A DNA stretch of 64,000 bases. It comes from an uncultured Planctomycetota bacterium. Lineage in GTDB: Bacteria > Planctomycetota > Planctomycetia > Isosphaerales > Isosphaeraceae. Location: positions 1,824,001-1,888,000 of the forward strand of contig CAVTTN010000002.1 of the NCBI GenBank assembly GCA_963737655.1, written 5' to 3'. Each line of letters opens with the position of its first letter. Positions within the stretch are counted from its first letter, which is position 1. Position numbers: made by a program. This document shows, one piece after another, positions 30,701-39,700 of this stretch.

Positions 30701-33700
30701 CGGTGTGCAAGGCGCCGATCCCGCAGGGCGTCCCGATTAATTTGGCCGATCGGCCTGCGTCAAGGGGTCCCCTCTTCGGTTGAGGGGGCGTCCTTGTCGT
30801 CGAGGTCGCGCCGCGTCTGGGGCCCGGCCGAGGGGGGACCTCGGCCGGGATCGTTCGTCGTCCGCGCCCCGTTGGGTGCCCTCCGTGAGACGGGGCCCCG
30901 GCGGGGCTCGTGCCTCGTCGCGCCTCGAGTCTTCCGACCCCGGAGCCCCCCATGACTGCGATGTCCCCCCCGCAAGCGAACTCCCGCCAGACCCCGGCCG
31001 ACCCCTCGACGGGTCCGCGACGACGGGAGGCGGCCCGTCGTCGCGCGAAGAAGCTCATGTTCGAGGTGCTCGAAGGCCGGGTGATGCTCGACGGCGACCT
31101 CGCCTCGGCCCAGCAGGCGTACAACCAGGCGATGACTCAGGCCGCCAGCGACGAGCAAGCGGCCAACGACGCCCGGAACGCCGCCGTGGCCGCCGCTCAG
31201 ACCGCCCTGGACGGCGTGACCCAGCAGGCCAACGCCGCGTGGTCGGCGAGCGAGGCCGACGCCTGGTCCACGTATCAGAGCGTCGTCAGCGCCGCCGACT
31301 CGACCTACTGGAGCGCGGTGAATCCGGCGTGGTCGGCCTATCAGGACGTCCTGAACAACGCCCAGACGGCCTACAACGCGGCGGCCTCGGCGGCCGACGG
31401 CAAGCAGTCGGCGGCCAACGCCTCGGCCGAGGCGGACTACCAGCAGGCCCAGACCGACGCCCAGGCGACGTACGACGCGGCGGTGGCCTCGGCCGACTCC
31501 ACGTACAACGACGCCTCGGCCGCGGCGCAAGCGGCCTTCGCCGTGGCCTCGGCGGCGGCCGACGCCACGCGAGACCAGGCCGAGGCCACGGCCCAGGCGA
31601 CCTCCGATGCCGCCGTGGCGGCGGCCAACACGGTCTACCAGGCCGCGAGCGACGGCGCGTTCGCGAGCTATCAGGCGACCGTCGCGGCCCTCCAGGCGAC
31701 GATGGACGGCGCGATCGCCGCGCTCGGGGTCACGCGAGACGCGGCGGTGGCCGCCGCGGGCTCGGCCCACTCCGCGACGATGGCGACGGCCCAGGCGGCC
31801 CACGATTCGGCGGTGGCGACGGCCCAGGCCGGCTTCGACGCCGCCCAGACCGCCGCCGGGACGGCCCGCGACTCCGCCAACGCCGCCGCGGAGGCCACCT
31901 ACAACGACGCGCTCGCCCAGGCCGCGAACCAGTACGCCGCCGGGGCCCAGGACCAGGGCCAGACCGCCCCGCTGAACCTCGACGCCGACCCCGGCTATCA
32001 GAACGCCGTGAACGCGGCGGCGGCCGCCTACAACGCGGCCGTGGCCGCCTCCGACGCGACCTACAACGCCGCGATCGACGCCGCATCGAGCGTCTACAAC
32101 GCCGCCACCGCCGCCGCCGACGCGGCCAATCAGGCCGCCTCCGACGCCGCCGAGGCCGCCTATCAATCGGCCTCCGACGCGGCCCAGGCGGCGTATAATT
32201 CGGCCTCTCAGGCGGCCCAGGCGGCCCACGACTCGCAGTATGTCGCCGCCGAATCGGCCTACGCGGCCCAGGCTCAGGCCGCCCAGAACGCCTATACGGC
32301 GGCCGTCGCCCAGGCCGATTCCGCCTACGACGCCGCCTCCGCCTCGGCCCAGGCCACCCACGACTCCGCCTATCAGGCCGCCAACGACGCCTACAACAAC
32401 GCCTTGCAGGCCCATCAGGCCACCTACAACGCCGCCGTCGCGGCGGCCGACGCCACCCAGAGCGCCGCCTACCAGGCCGCCCAGTCCACCTATGACGCCG
32501 CCGTCCAGGCCGCGAGCGACGCCTACGACTCGGCCGCTCAATCGGCCGACGACGCGTACAACTCCGCGGTCCAGGCCGACACCGACGCCACCAACGCCCA
32601 GATCCAGGGCTATCTCGACTCGCTCAATGGAACGGTCCAGTCCGCCGATGCCGCCCGGACGGTCTCGCTCAACGCCGCGGCGGCCACCTACAGCTCCGCC
32701 TCCCAGGCCGCCAACAACGCGTATAACGACGCCGTGGCCGGCTTCAACCAGACCCGTTCCGATGCCGACAACGCCGCCAGCCAGGCGTACAGCAACACCA
32801 TGAAGGGCGCCAACGACGCCCTGAACAACGCGCAAAACGCCTTCTACCAGGCGATGAGCAACATCGAGATGGCCCAGATGCAGTGGTACTACTCGCATCC
32901 CAACGGAGGCACCCCGCCCGATTACAGCGCCCAGATGCAAGCGGCCACCGACGCCTTCAACGCGGCGAAGAAGCAATATGCCGTGACCGAGGCGCAAGCG
33001 GAAGTCACCCTGGCCCAGGCCACCGGCGCCGATGCCGTCGCGTTCGTCACGTCGGAGCAAGGCGCGGCCGTCACCCGGATCACGGCCCTGGCCAACGCCG
33101 GGAAGGACCAGGCGATCGCCGGGGCCCAGGCGAACAAGACGTATGTGGACGCGGTGGCCCCGGCCGTGGCCGACTTCCGGGCCCAGCAGGCCCACGCCAA
33201 CGCCGATCTCACGCAAGAGGTGGCCGACCAGCGGGTCGATCTCGCCCAGGCGATCGCCTCGGCCCTGAAGACCTTCCGCAACACGACGGCCGACGCCGCC
33301 GAGACCCAGGCCAACGCCAACGCGGCCGCCGACAAGGCCTGGACCCTGTCCGAGGCCTCGGCCATGGAGGCCATGAACAACGCCGACGCCGCCTCGGCCG
33401 AGACCCTGGCCAACGCCCAGGCCGACGCCGACGGTGCCCTCGACAACGCCCTGGCGCAAGCCGATGCCGCGTGGGTGGCGTCCGAGGCCTCGGCCGCGAC
33501 CACATTGGAGAACGCCCAGGCCCAGGCCGACCTGACCCGGACCACGGCCGAGGCCAACGCCGATGCCGCCCTGACCACGGCCCAATCCAACGCCGGGGCG
33601 GCGGAGGTCGCGGCCCTGGCCACGGCGGGAGTGGCGTGGTCCACCGCCCAGGCCTCGGCCGATCGGGCGTGGGTGGCCTCGGTGGTCTCGGCCAACACGG

Positions 33701-36700: not shown

Positions 36701-39700
36701 GGTCAAGGGTCAGATCGGCCACGAATACGATTTCCACCTCGTCCTGACCGATCCGAGGACCGGCGAAACGAGGATGTCGCTCCGGCCCGTCCCCTGGACC
36801 GAGGCCCTGAGACACGCCCAGGCCCTGTACGATCGCGGCTTGACCCGCGATCGCTCGTGGGCCTACTTCGACAAGCACCTGTCCTGAGCGGGCCGGTCCG
36901 CCCGGCCGATCCACCTCACCCCCCATCGCTCGGGCGTGTCTCCGCCCGAGGAGGAGGTCTTCATGATCGGTGAGATTCCGCGAGACGACCCCGCGAACGA
37001 TCCCCGGCCCGCGCGATCGGCCCGGTTCTGGGCCCTCTGGACGATGGCCTCGGCGACCGTGGTCCTTGGGGTCATGGCGACGAGGGGGGCTTCCCCTCCG
37101 AAGCCCGAGAGGCCCGCCGGACCGGTCTGGCGGCCGATCTCCGTCACGGCCGAGCCCGCCCGGCGCTCGAGGTCGATCGAAGAGGTGAAGGTCGGCGACC
37201 TGGTGATGAGCCGGGACGACGCGACCGGCGCCGTGGTCCCGAAGCGGGTCGTTCGCCTGTTCCGCAACACCTCGGACCACCTCCGGCTGGTCCGGGTCCG
37301 GGCCGGGTCCGGCGCCGAGCAGACGATCGAGACGACCGACGACCACCCGTTCTTCGTCGTCGGCCACGGCTGGTCGGCGGCCAGGGACCTTGTTCCCGGA
37401 GACCGCCTGACCCAGCCCGACGGCGAGATGGCCGAGGTCGCCGCGACCGAGAGGCGGGATCATCCCGAGGGCGTCCCGGTCTTCAACTTCGAGGTCGAAG
37501 GGACGCACAATTACTTCGTGGCGCGATCGCCCGACGATGCGTTCGTCCTCGCCCATAACGAGTGCATCCGGGTCAAGCCGGGCCGGCAGGCCCCGGGCCA
37601 CGAGTTCCGGATCAGCCCCGATGAGCTGAATTTCGTCAAGAACTTGCTCGCGAGGAACCGCAAGCCCAACCTGGAGGTCTATCGGACGAACCAGACCGAG
37701 AGGATGGGCGACTTCATCGTGATCGATCGTTCCAATCCCAGCAAACCCGTCGGCTGGGTCGTGGACGTGAAGATGGGCGGAGGGGCGCGGGCAACCAGCT
37801 GGAGAACGCCGCGAGGGCCAAGCAGATGTTCGGCCTCGACCAGCTCAAGACGGCCTCGGGGACCGCCGCCGACCTGATCCGCCAGCTCGGGATCGGCCGG
37901 GGGCAATGGTGACGCGATGACCGGAGATTCGACGCGATGGCGGATCGCCGACGGAGGGCCGGCGATCCCCGAACCTTCCTCCGAGGAGGTGGCCCGGATG
38001 CTCGGGTCGGCCGAGGCCCGGCCTTCGGGCGATCGGCCCTGGGCGATCGTCCGCTCTCCGGACGACGCACCCCGTCTCCTCGCCCGCGACGACGCCGATC
38101 GGTTCGTGGCCGGGTTCTGGTCCGCGTCCGGTCGGCTCTTCCTCGCGGCCTCGCCGATCGGCGGAGGGCCCGGGTCCGTTCTCAGCGAATGGGTCCCGGA
38201 CGGCTCGTGGCGACCGGCTCTCTCCCTGGCCGGGGAGGTCCTGGGAGTCGCCACCCCGCCGGGCGGCAAGGGACCGGCCGTCACGGTCCTCGAACCCGAT
38301 CGGAAGCGGCTGGCGCTGGTCGGCCTCGACGGCTTACCGATCGCGTCCATCTCGCTCGGGTCGCCGGCCCGGGAGAGGGCCTGGGCGGCCTCCGGGACGG
38401 CCGTTCGTTCGGAGGACGGCACGCTTGCGGTCTTCGACGCCGGGCTCGCCCCCCTTGGCACGCCGTTCCGGTTCCGCAAGAGACTTGATGAACTGGCCCT
38501 CGCGCCGGGGCCTGATCACGTCTTTGGGTTTGGTCGCGATCCGGGGGTCTGGTCGGTCGATCTCCCGGCAGGGGAGCCCTGGTCCGTCGGGCGCGAGGGC
38601 CTCGCCACCCGCGCCGTGATCCCTCTGGGCCTCGGAGGGGCCGTTTGCGGATGGGAAGATGGCGCGGTCACGCGGTTCGATGCGTCGTCGCGACAGGTCC
38701 TCTGGACGACCGAGGCCGAGCCCGGGTGCCAATCCCTGGTGATCGACGTGGCCATCGGGACCGGGCGGGTCGTCTCGGGCTCGTCCTCGGGAAAAGTCCG
38801 AGCCCTCGACCTCCTCGGCGGAGCGGGGCGCTGGGAGATCGACGTGGGGACGGGCACGGTCGAGCACGTCCTGATCCTGGGCGGATGGGTGATCGCGGCC
38901 GGGGCGAACGAAGTCCTCTCCGTCCTGGATCTGGCCTCGGGCGAGGCCCGGGCCCACCTCTTCGGCCACCGGCACCGGATCACCCACTTGACTCCTTCGG
39001 CCCTCGGATCCGGGTTCATCTCCGCCGACAAGACGGGCCGAATCCTCGCCTGGGACCTCGCCGGGGGATGACTCCTCCCGAGGGAATCCCCGGCCTCTTC
39101 TAGAATTCGATCCCGAGTTGCGCCTTCACCCCCGATTTGTACGGATGTTTCACCGCGACGATCTCCGAGACGAGGTCGGCGGCCTCGATGATCTCGGGAG
39201 GCGCGCCTCGGCCGGTCAGGACGACGTGTTGCCTCGGGTCTCGGGCCTGGAGGAACTCGACGACGAGCTTCGGGTCGAGGTAGCCGAGCTTCATCACGAC
39301 GTTGATCTCGTCGAGGATCACCACGTCATACTTCCCCGAGGCGATCGCCTCCTTGCTGACCTCCCAGATCGCCAGGGTGGTGGCGATGTCCTGCTCGGGG
39401 TTCTTGGTGTCCCAGGTGAAGCCGTCGCCCATGGGCAAGATCGTGATGTCGGGCGCGAGCCGATCGGCCATCTTCTTCTCGCCGGTCTTCCACTTCCCCT
39501 TGATGTACTGGACCATGAAGACCTTGAAGCCGACGCCCAGGGCGCGGAACGCCAGCCCGAGCGCGGCGGTCGTCTTCCCCTTGCCATCGCCGGTGTTCAC
39601 CAGGATCAGGCCCCTCCGCCTCTTGGGCTCCGGGGCGGGCGGCTCGTCGTTCAGTTCGGCCATCGGGGCACCTCGTCGGGCGGGAAGGGAAGGAAGGGTC

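What a model noticed while it worked through the whole genome (the two positions that open the first line are those of the whole stretch)
30910..37877. Naturally split, membrane-anchored Hint domain in polymorphic toxin loci
The Hint auto-cleavage domain of these toxin systems is interrupted after its first ~12 residues (C-F-V-A-G-T block) by two membrane helices, and in this genome it is split into two genes between the helices at both loci (here and C2:6074034-6075455). The carrier ends with Hint-N plus an anchor helix; a separate ~300-aa gene encodes anchor helix, Hint-C (ending His-Asn) and a variable toxin tip, so toxin cassettes can complement the carrier in trans like a split intein.
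Evidence so far: Locus A: carrier ORF ends with Cys1 block, hydrophobic helix and stop; next ORF starts 107 bp later with its own SD and ATG; a second helix+Hint-C cassette follows. Locus B shows the same break point (42, 47). Relative G017 has the same split on an RHS carrier (55, 56). Fused forms with the two-helix insert: G073 and P0016, P0082, P0087 (35, 52). Of 7 further loci translated, 5 were fused (one is the G073 locus again) and 2 had a stop after helix 1 (65-71). Representative search: 93 proteins at E<=1e-30, many ~300 aa and starting at helix 2 (50). Fold of Hint-N (34 aa) with Hint-C: score 0.81 against best control 0.03, contacts on residues 9-23, runs agree >=84%, partner pLDDT >=54; mark rea [...]
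(Added by a program. Inside this text positions count along the whole contig: contig position 1,824,001 is position 1 of the stretch shown here. "Call 12" and the like, gene names such as g00115 and contig names such as C1 are that model's own, and its searches are not shown. The text may have been shortened before it was handed on; [...] marks where a part breaks off. The agent that wrote the report below was given it as the finding of a first reader that could run no searches.)

Follow-up and report, generated by a model that had tools for sequence, protein, structure and literature searches.

The report
Membrane-anchored split self-cleaving toxin domain
In planctomycete bacteria the self-cutting domain of antibacterial toxins is threaded through the membrane on two anchors and is often encoded as two separate genes, so a toxin tip made on its own may snap onto its carrier protein, an arrangement that could let one carrier be loaded with different toxins.

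Summary
Confirmed and extended. The 1,490-aa carrier ends with the first Hint strands (Cys1 block), a membrane helix, a basic cluster and a stop. A separate gene 107 nt later encodes a second helix, the rest of the Hint (TxxH, HN) and a toxin tip.

The two-helix insert is a family trait in Planctomycetia, in two Hint subtypes. I found 35 fused and 16 cleanly split loci; the 16 come from 15 assemblies, two of them single-contig genomes. Breaks fall in the inter-helix loop (19 of 20). 15 of 16 have a ribosome site and ATG, against 9 of 34 fused. Carriers upstream are intact for about 20,000 codons. Split forms are not one clade.

Charge bias puts both Hint pieces outside the cytoplasm. Models close the fold across the insert (BIL 2LWY, Z 23) and in trans with the stand-alone cassette (0.79 vs control 0.44; may be likeness only).

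Best reading: halves assemble at the inner membrane, and Hint chemistry frees carrier and tip, possibly ligating them. Expression, assembly and chemistry are untested. This assembly has frameshifts and no reads were listed, so locus A alone could be an error. Not found in the literature searched.

The parts
30549..30578 (+). sigma-70-like promoter consensus match upstream of the carrier (pattern only)
   Evidence: 1 found in 30400-39300, shuffles mean 0.2
30952..35424 (+). Carrier gene, 1,490 aa (alternative GTG at 30910): Ala-rich helical stalk, ends with Hint-N, helix 1 and a cytoplasmic tail
   Evidence: no Pfam stalk family, no usable Atlas hit
31054..31107 (+). LEPR-XLL-like motif near the N-terminus (weak)
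   Evidence: NF012209 E 0.028, 14 bits, below the cut-off of 17
34768..35106 (+). Hydrophobic Gly-rich pre-toxin segment and weak PT-TG match
   Evidence: KD 2.43 at residue 1273; PF14449 E 0.007, below cut-off
35116..35154 (+). Hint-N: Cys1 block (first about 13 residues of the Hint fold)
   Evidence: Cys and Phe invariant in 47 rows; contacts to Hint-C
35227..35325 (+). Helix 1 (N-out, C-in) and Arg-rich stop-transfer cluster
35326..35424 (+). Acidic cytoplasmic tail ending in nonpolar residues, then TGA
35425..35531 (+). 107-nt spacer with a 13-bp hairpin and a Shine-Dalgarno site
   Evidence: z -3.6, 0 of 200 shuffles; SD -5.9
35532..36434 (+). Cassette 1, 300 aa: helix 2 (35568-35633), Hint-C (about 35709-36101, ends His-Asn), toxin tip (36102-36431)
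   Evidence: tip resembles Ntox47/Tox-HNH-EHHH clusters, score 0.90, lead only
36513..36887 (+). 124-aa gene, presumed immunity protein for tip 1 (by position)
   Evidence: no family match
36963..37912 (+). Cassette 2: own SD+ATG, helix 2 (37026-37079), Hint-C (ends 37559), nuclease-like tip by eye. The ORF ends at 37877 after a frame break near 37790; the other frame stops at 37912
37917..39071 (+). 384-aa beta-propeller gene, presumed immunity protein for tip 2 (by position)
   Evidence: PQQ_2 E 2e-8

Best explanation
A polymorphic antibacterial toxin system whose processing domain (A-type bacterial intein-like Hint) is built around a membrane hairpin and can be made from two genes. Steps: (1) The carrier is exported N-terminus first and stops in the inner membrane at helix 1, leaving the Cys1 strands outside and a basic/acidic tail inside (anatomy shown; export route and topology inferred). 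(2) The cassette is translated from its own start, and helix 2 acts as a signal anchor or cleavable signal that puts Hint-C and the tip outside (start signals shown; export inferred). (3) The two anchored pieces meet in the membrane plane and the Cys1 strands complete the Hint fold (modelled, not shown). (4) Cys1 acyl shift and Asn cyclisation cut carrier and tip from their anchors and hand the tip to the carrier, by non-covalent capture or by ligation (inferred; about even odds). (5) The leftover stub, which ends in nonpolar residues, is probably degraded (speculative). Fused genes do the same in cis. Because the loop is cytoplasmic and outside the fold, it has been broken or rejoined several times. 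Downstream cassettes with their own start and anchor can serve as alternative partners.
For: Break position: 19 of 20 breaks lie in the loop, which is 53% of the scored length (p 5e-5; rows dropped are listed in the full report). Restart signals: ATG+SD before helix 2 in 15 of 19 interrupted vs 9 of 34 fused loci (p 4e-4). Spacers are 13-157 nt in all three frames, and lower in GC than both flanks in 15 of 16. Nine split carriers are open for 20,607 codons in total before the loop stop. Splits occur in single-contig genomes G615 and G626 and are not one clade (p-AU 0.001). Lys+Arg per 15 residues: 0.4 before helix 1, 5.4-6.5 after it, 3.0-3.9 before helix 2, 0.9-1.8 after it. Catalytic residues kept: TxxH 213, block-F His 193 and HN 221 of 223 complete C-halves. 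The AF2 model of a fused relative closes the fold across the insert and matches BIL 2LWY (Z 23.1, rmsd 1.3, 138 aligned). Carrier Hint-N with cassette-2 Hint-C scores 0.79 vs best control 0.44 (mark reached by 116 of 157 solved and 2 of 215 mismatched pairs; runs agree at least 83%, partner pLDDT at least 55). Engineered S1-split inteins with 11-13-residue N-pieces splice (PMC11766414, table passage).
Against: No expression, binding or chemistry data. The complex score may come from likeness to solved inteins. The carrier has no classical signal peptide by eye, and its LEPR-XLL match is below cut-off, so the N-out topology rests on charge bias. Only 29 of 109 stand-alone cassettes have ATG plus a clear SD, and their homology borders vary from -450 to +159 nt around helix 2. 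Several have no start. Only 61 of 217 C-halves have Cys/Ser/Thr at +1, and none of the three in this genome do; BILs mainly cleave (PMC7664689). Kin are not independent, and cassettes recombine, which can scramble the tree. This assembly has several frameshifts.
Confidence: 0.6

Rival explanations
1. The split is real but the halves work alone. The cassette is a self-sufficient exported toxin (or a toxin-antitoxin-like module) that cleaves at Asn without the Cys1 strands or is not cleaved, and the carrier is an anchored adhesin.
For: Stand-alone cassettes (109 with helix 2) far outnumber adjacent split pairs (16). Some follow fused carriers that need no partner yet have their own ATG outside the shared homology. 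Internal expression of rhs toxin-antitoxin pairs is known in Salmonella (PMC7043789, abstract).
Against: The Cys1 block is kept in all split carriers and stays next to a C-half. The missing strands pair with blocks B, F and G in the model, so Hint-C alone has an open core.
Confidence: 0.17
2. Locus A is a fused gene broken by an assembly indel or recent decay; 'splits' are damage.
For: The cassette frame is open across the spacer. Total insert length in split loci (154-234 codons) overlaps fused ones (148-306). The assembly has frame breaks at locus B and in cassette 2 and is 87.7% complete in 3 contigs. True damage exists in the family (L075, L162, L236 and seven rows from two frameshift-rich assemblies).
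Against: The same break occurs in 15 assemblies, 7 of 16 by an in-frame stop. Damaged loci mostly lack the restart that clean splits have. About 20,600 upstream codons are intact. Locus A has an SD, a spacer hairpin and a nonpolar end, and a relative with a similar Ala-rich carrier (L065) is split by an in-frame TAA.
Confidence: 0.08
3. The helices are not producer-side anchors. They insert into the target cell's membrane to move the tip across, or the topology is inverted with the Hint in the producer's cytoplasm.
For: Membrane-inserting helices upstream of toxin tips are common in polymorphic toxins (recalled). No signal peptide is evident on the carrier.
Against: The roughly 100-residue loop is highly charged and follows the positive-inside rule on both helices. 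In split forms helix 2 is N-terminal behind a basic stretch, like a signal anchor.
Confidence: 0.08
4. Only a fused product works. It is made at low level by stop read-through or frameshifting, and downstream cassettes are silent recombination donors as in classical polymorphic toxin loci.
For: Seven of 16 splits are in frame, and most have a single stop. Recombination with stand-alone cassettes is the standard model (PMC3482391). Some cassettes lack any start.
Against: All three frame relations and all three stop codons occur. No slippery heptamer precedes the locus A stop (by eye). ATG is enriched before helix 2 in cassettes with a near upstream stop: 39 of 53 vs 16.5-25 expected.
Confidence: 0.07

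Closest known systems
PT-HINT (PF07591) / A-type bacterial intein-like domain of polymorphic toxins (CdiA class I, MafB, UmbC; structure 2LWY)
   Same: Position between carrier and variable tip, Cys1, TxxH, block-F His, terminal His-Asn, mostly non-nucleophilic +1; fold match Z 23.1, 46% identity.
   Different: A 150-300-residue two-helix membrane insert after the first strands, and division into two genes inside that insert. Neither is mentioned in the passages read.
Atypically split inteins (natural AceL-TerL and GOS-TerL, consensus Cat; engineered S1 splits of Ssp DnaB/DnaX)
   Same: A short N-piece completes a large C-piece; the S1 site leaves 11-13 residues, like this one (PMC11766414, passages).
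   Different: Those sit in split host genes and restore one protein through a +1 nucleophile. Here each piece is membrane-anchored, the C-extein is a variable toxin tip, +1 is usually not a nucleophile, and fused and split states coexist.
Engineered trans-splicing BIL domain, and intein domain swapping (Aranko et al. 2013; titles seen only in a reference list)
   Same: By title, a BIL domain can ligate in trans without nucleophilic side chains; the best structural match here is the BIL structure 2LWY.
   Different: Artificial and soluble; the papers were not read, so the split site was not compared.
Orphan cassettes of Rhs/CDI/MafB loci, including internally expressed Salmonella rhs toxin-antitoxin pairs
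   Same: Arrays of tip plus immunity genes downstream of one carrier.
   Different: These cassettes begin with a membrane helix and carry most of an autoprocessing domain, which gives a route to the carrier at protein level rather than only by recombination.

Membership tests
PT-HINT / A-type BIL | Pfam PF07591 above cut-off | tested here: met
   86.2 and 69.4 bits vs cut-off 27.7, starting at profile positions 8-9
PT-HINT / A-type BIL | Cys1, block-B TxxH, block-F His, terminal His-Asn | tested here: met
   Cys1 on the carrier, the rest on the cassettes
PT-HINT / A-type BIL | Hint fold | tested here: met
   Fused relative: 2LWY Z 23.1, rmsd 1.3, 138 aligned, model range 3-336
PT-HINT / A-type BIL | One contiguous soluble domain | tested here: not met
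   Two-helix insert; two genes at both loci
PT-HINT / A-type BIL | Autocleavage or splicing activity | not testable with these tools
   needs biochemistry
Polymorphic toxin system | Large carrier, processing peptidase, variable tip, small downstream gene, further cassettes | tested here: met
   (carriers in the family include RHS, Ig, Calx-beta and Ala-rich types)
Polymorphic toxin system | Tip belongs to a known toxin family and neighbour to a known immunity family | tested here: inconclusive
   No Pfam hit; Atlas lead Ntox47/Tox-HNH-EHHH 0.90; some relatives carry Pfam domains beyond the Hint, not examined further
Naturally split intein (class 1) | Two genes each with a complementary Hint fragment and own start | tested here: met
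Naturally split intein (class 1) | Cys/Ser/Thr at +1 of the C-extein | tested here: not met
   Asp, Glu and Ala in this genome; 61 of 217 in the family; Cys within +1 to +4 in 121 of 217
Naturally split intein (class 1) | Inserted in a conserved host protein that splicing restores | tested here: not met
   Flanks are variable carriers and tips
Naturally split intein (class 1) | Trans-splicing | not testable with these tools
   needs biochemistry
LEPR-XLL domain proteins (NF012209) | Model above cut-off | tested here: inconclusive
   14 bits vs 17; similar motifs by eye in other carriers

The most novel reading that the evidence does not exclude
Planctomycetes arm their toxins by protein trans-splicing at the membrane. 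An anchored carrier and separately made anchored tips assemble a split BIL domain, are ligated, and leave both anchors behind. One carrier gene then yields a mixed population of toxins without DNA recombination, and cassettes could swap in even on fused carriers.
Probability: 0.3. Interest if true: 0.92.

Novelty: new variant of a known kind. Interest (0 to 1): 0.78.

Why it matters
Natural split Hint domains are known as inteins that restore split host genes. Here one appears to be a regulated coupling between a delivery protein and interchangeable toxin tips, with membrane anchors supplying export and proximity. It makes testable whether 'orphan' toxin cassettes can be used at protein level, a long-standing question for polymorphic toxins. 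It also points to how giant planctomycete surface proteins are held and released. The family would be a natural source of split self-processing domains with a roughly 13-residue N-piece that work outside the cytoplasm.

Tried and rejected
Reads: no run was listed for 34000-38000, so the assembly could not be checked and expression was not examined. Earlier findings: three look-ups returned nothing. A universal internal start in fused genes was my early idea and is rejected: only 19 of 34 have an ATG and 9 of 34 an ATG+SD before helix 2. Cassettes as exact duplicates starting at the SD is not general; homology borders scatter. Conserved recoding is rejected on mixed frames and stops. A conserved disulfide staple across the Hint is not supported: Cys within 25 residues before Cys1 in only 18 of 64. 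The carrier as an ALF/UmbC-type protein: no Pfam or Atlas match, inconclusive. Other split carriers in this genome: none; a Cys1-block scan gave only loci A and B with the helix pattern. The first loose motif pattern gave false Cys1 blocks inside helix 2 and was replaced by a scored profile. The subtype A tree was quick mode only, and a single origin is not excluded there. No terminator-like site lies in the spacer. No dedicated signal-peptide or topology predictor was available, so a cleavable helix 2 is not excluded.
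Full report
OBSERVATION. The carrier ORF runs 30952-35424 (1,490 aa, Ala-rich). 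It ends with a Cys1 block at 35116, an acidic linker, a hydrophobic helix, an Arg cluster, an acidic tail and TGA. A 300-aa gene starts 107 nt later at 35532 in another frame. It has an N-terminal hydrophobic helix, PT-HINT positions 8-137 (E 3e-24), His-Asn and a 110-aa tip. A 124-aa gene, a second helix+Hint-C cassette (36963) and a beta-propeller gene follow. Locus B (C2:6074034) has the same break with an in-frame TGA and a 60-nt spacer, on a different carrier and a different Hint subtype. A scored Cys1-block scan of contig C2 gave 9 hits. Loci A and B are the only two with the linker-helix-basic pattern; five are ordinary contiguous Hints and two look like chance. Named relatives are mostly Planctomycetota.

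WHY CAUTION WAS NEEDED. The cassette frame at locus A is open back to 32883, so one indel would make a fused gene. The assembly has at least three frame breaks in the locus B carrier, one in its tip and one in the cassette 2 tip. It is 87.7% complete in three contigs. No reads were listed. The question therefore had to be settled on relatives.

SURVEY. Two C-half alignments were built: subtype A (A3) and subtype B (A2). I gathered 286 loci from genome searches, collection scans and larger regions chosen by me around hits; this is not a random sample. Hits at E 1e-35 or better occurred in 13 of 401 genomes of the class for A and 80 of 401 for B; these counts include Hints without helices. After merging identical rows there were 73 Cys1-block/Hint-C pairs with a long insert or a break: 7 with short inserts (under 100 residues), 39 fused with 100 or more, and 27 interrupted. 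Of the 39 I dropped three from a frameshift-rich assembly (L052, L053, L060) and L088 (different insert), leaving 35. L145 fell out of the scored set because helix 1 was under threshold, leaving 34; it has an ATG+SD. Of the 27 interrupted, 16 are clean splits: a stop 21-82 residues after helix 1, then an ATG before helix 2. They come from 15 assemblies, including single-contig G615 and G626 at 99-100% completeness. The other 11 are seven rows from two frameshift-rich assemblies (three break at or before helix 1), L075 and L162 (frame break in the loop, no restart after the stop), L109 (split plus a second break) and L236 (fused, decayed in Hint-C). The representative search found 695 proteins at E 1e-30 or better. 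Of the best 150, 71 start with Met within 45 residues of helix 2, 10 are fused two-helix, 7 canonical, 30 have helix 2 and a longer N-terminus without a detected Cys1 block, and 32 are other.

THE SPLIT IS SELECTED, NOT DAMAGE. (a) Leaving out those seven rows and L236, 19 of 20 breaks lie in the loop, which is 53% of the scored length (p 5e-5). (b) Defining groups by interruption alone, ATG+SD at -3.9 kcal/mol or better precedes helix 2 in 15 of 19 interrupted vs 9 of 34 fused loci (p 4e-4). With the seven rows put back it is 15 of 26 vs 9 of 37 (p 0.009). The threshold was set after seeing the values; for the 16 clean splits, -4.5 gives 12 of 16 vs 8 of 34 and -5.5 gives 9 of 16 vs 6 of 34. 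(c) Spacers are 13-157 nt: 7 in frame, 4 in +1, 5 in +2. They are lower in GC than both flanks in 15 of 16; locus A is the exception and holds a 13-bp hairpin (z -3.6). (d) Nine split carriers are open for 20,607 codons in total before the loop stop and are of RHS, Ig, Calx-beta and Ala-rich types. (e) In subtype B the 12 split rows need 6 changes, at least 3 forced by strong branches, and one clade is rejected (p-AU 0.001). In subtype A a single origin is not excluded. Cassette recombination may inflate this, and direction is not established. (f) Noticed post hoc: 12 of 16 N-halves end in Ala, Val or Cys, against 15% of 201 off-frame stops in fused loops and 17% of 726 long ORF ends in this genome. 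Against reading too much into it: 6 of the 11 other interruptions also end in Ala, and fused loops often have a short nonpolar patch at a similar place (9 of 34 by pattern). That nonpolar C-termini are degradation signals is recalled; the review passages read covered only ssrA (PMC8138137). Kin are not independent, so all p-values overstate.

TOPOLOGY. Median 19-residue hydropathy is 1.68 for helix 1 (37 of 51 reach 1.5) and 1.95 for helix 2 (47 of 51), against 0.37 in the same stretch of 32 canonical Hints. Locus A is marginal: 1.17 and 1.34. Lys+Arg per 15 residues is 0.4 before helix 1, 5.4 (split) or 6.5 (fused) after it, 3.0 or 3.9 before helix 2, and 1.8 or 0.9 after it. By the positive-inside rule (established knowledge) the loop, and hence the break, is cytoplasmic and both Hint pieces face the same outer side. 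How the carrier's long N-terminal part gets out is unexplained; the LEPR-XLL match is below cut-off.

STRUCTURE. AlphaFold2 on a fused relative (L003, 11-row alignment) gave pLDDT 81-83 for residues 1-20, 84-97 for Hint-C and mostly under 50 for the insert, with helices at both predicted positions. The best of 48,161 chains was BIL 2LWY: Z 23.1, rmsd 1.3, 138 aligned, spanning model residues 3-336. For the carrier's 40-residue Hint-N piece with cassette 2 Hint-C, the score was 0.79 against a best control of 0.44. The mark was reached by 116 of 157 solved and 2 of 215 mismatched pairs; runs agree at least 83% and partner pLDDT is at least 55. Contacts run from three residues before Cys1 to residue 13 and reach blocks B, F and G. 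Halves of a known fold can pass by likeness, so this shows fit, not binding.

STAND-ALONE CASSETTES. Of 121 distinct C-halves with no Cys1 block within 1.5 kb upstream, 109 keep helix 2, 73 have an in-frame ATG within 45 codons and 29 an ATG+SD. Some may be first cassettes whose divergent Cys1 block was missed, as in P0035. Where an upstream stop lies within 45 codons, 39 of 53 have an ATG against 16.5-25 expected (0 of 20,000 simulations; ATGs at the first codons of the helix are included). Others lack a start, and homology borders scatter. Many, not all, look expressible.

MECHANISM. Catalytic residues are kept. Position +1 is Ala, Ser, Thr or Gly in 153 of 217 and a nucleophile in 61; Cys follows within four residues in 121. 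BILs mainly cleave (PMC7664689), and A-type ones can also splice by an alternative route (PMC5874633). An inner-membrane-anchored Hint must act in the producer, and in split loci tip and carrier are never one chain. Delivery therefore needs either ligation or non-covalent hand-over. I give 0.6 to assembly in trans with release of both passengers, and about half of that to ligation being the working product. Toxicity of the tips and immunity of the neighbours are inferred from position and from one Atlas lead.

KNOWN WORK. Searches listed no paper whose title or abstract opening describes a membrane-interrupted or naturally split toxin Hint. The library lacks most subscription papers, and no supplements were read; the additional files of PMC3482391 list architectures and could bear on this. 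What I saw: passages of PMC3482391, PMC7664689, PMC11766414, PMC5874633, PMC7738311, PMC4725963, PMC13483458, PMC8138137 and bioRxiv 10.1101/2023.12.09.570830; abstract and outline of PMC7043789; search listing of PMC2677866; titles only, in reference lists, of Aranko 2013 (two papers), Dassa 2004 and Amitai 2003. It is a PT-HINT/A-type BIL by sequence and fold. It is not a class 1 split intein (no +1 nucleophile, no host protein restored), though it is predicted to assemble like an atypically split one.

VERDICT. A real, recurrent architecture that I did not find described; function in trans is plausible and directly testable but unshown. New variant of a known kind, interest 0.78; 0.92 if trans-splicing loads tips (probability 0.3).

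Noticed in passing
G000 C2:103015, 2807547 (+); 4780144, 2440267 (-): Four long helical proteins end in a contiguous Hint domain with His-Asp in place of His-Asn and only a short tail, no toxin tip; a separate planctomycete Hint family, also in G053 (L015).
   Followed up: no
G000 C2:1664996 (-): A further, weakly scoring contiguous Hint domain with an internal insertion.
   Followed up: no
L001:12424-13200 and alignment A2: Hint subtype B carries a conserved extra block of about 60 residues between the third strand and block B, with an invariant Cys-Pro; found in 80 of 401 class genomes, with and without the helices.
   Followed up: partly
L004, L233, L253, L269, L270, L273: Non-membrane inserts of 43-58 residues at the same site after the Cys1 block, showing the site is permissive; possible precursors or reductions of the helix insert.
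   Followed up: partly
L088:3586-4400: An Armatimonadota Hint with two hydrophobic helices inserted at the same site but a short, uncharged loop.
   Followed up: no
L052-L055, L060, L061, L092: One assembly holds tandem arrays of whole Cys1-helix-loop-helix-Hint-C modules, many with frame breaks.
   Followed up: partly
L183, L187 (G215): Cassettes behind a 7,908-aa fused carrier appear to start at GTG with a strong ribosome site.
   Followed up: partly
window 37790-37912: Cassette 2 tip has a frame break; the other frame stops 4 nt before the next gene.
   Followed up: no
L001:3750-11968, 13400-13640, 14471-15385: Locus B carrier (Ig-like repeats, then Ser-rich) is in at least four frame segments; its tip and a downstream TPR-like gene also show frame breaks.
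   Followed up: partly
window 39100-45000 (-): By eye, cobalamin-pathway genes (adenosyltransferase, chelatase subunits) interrupted by three small ORFs at 41674-43302, one with a restriction-endonuclease-like look; not searched.
   Followed up: no
window 45450-52511 (+): 2,353-aa protein with many WD40 repeats.
   Followed up: no
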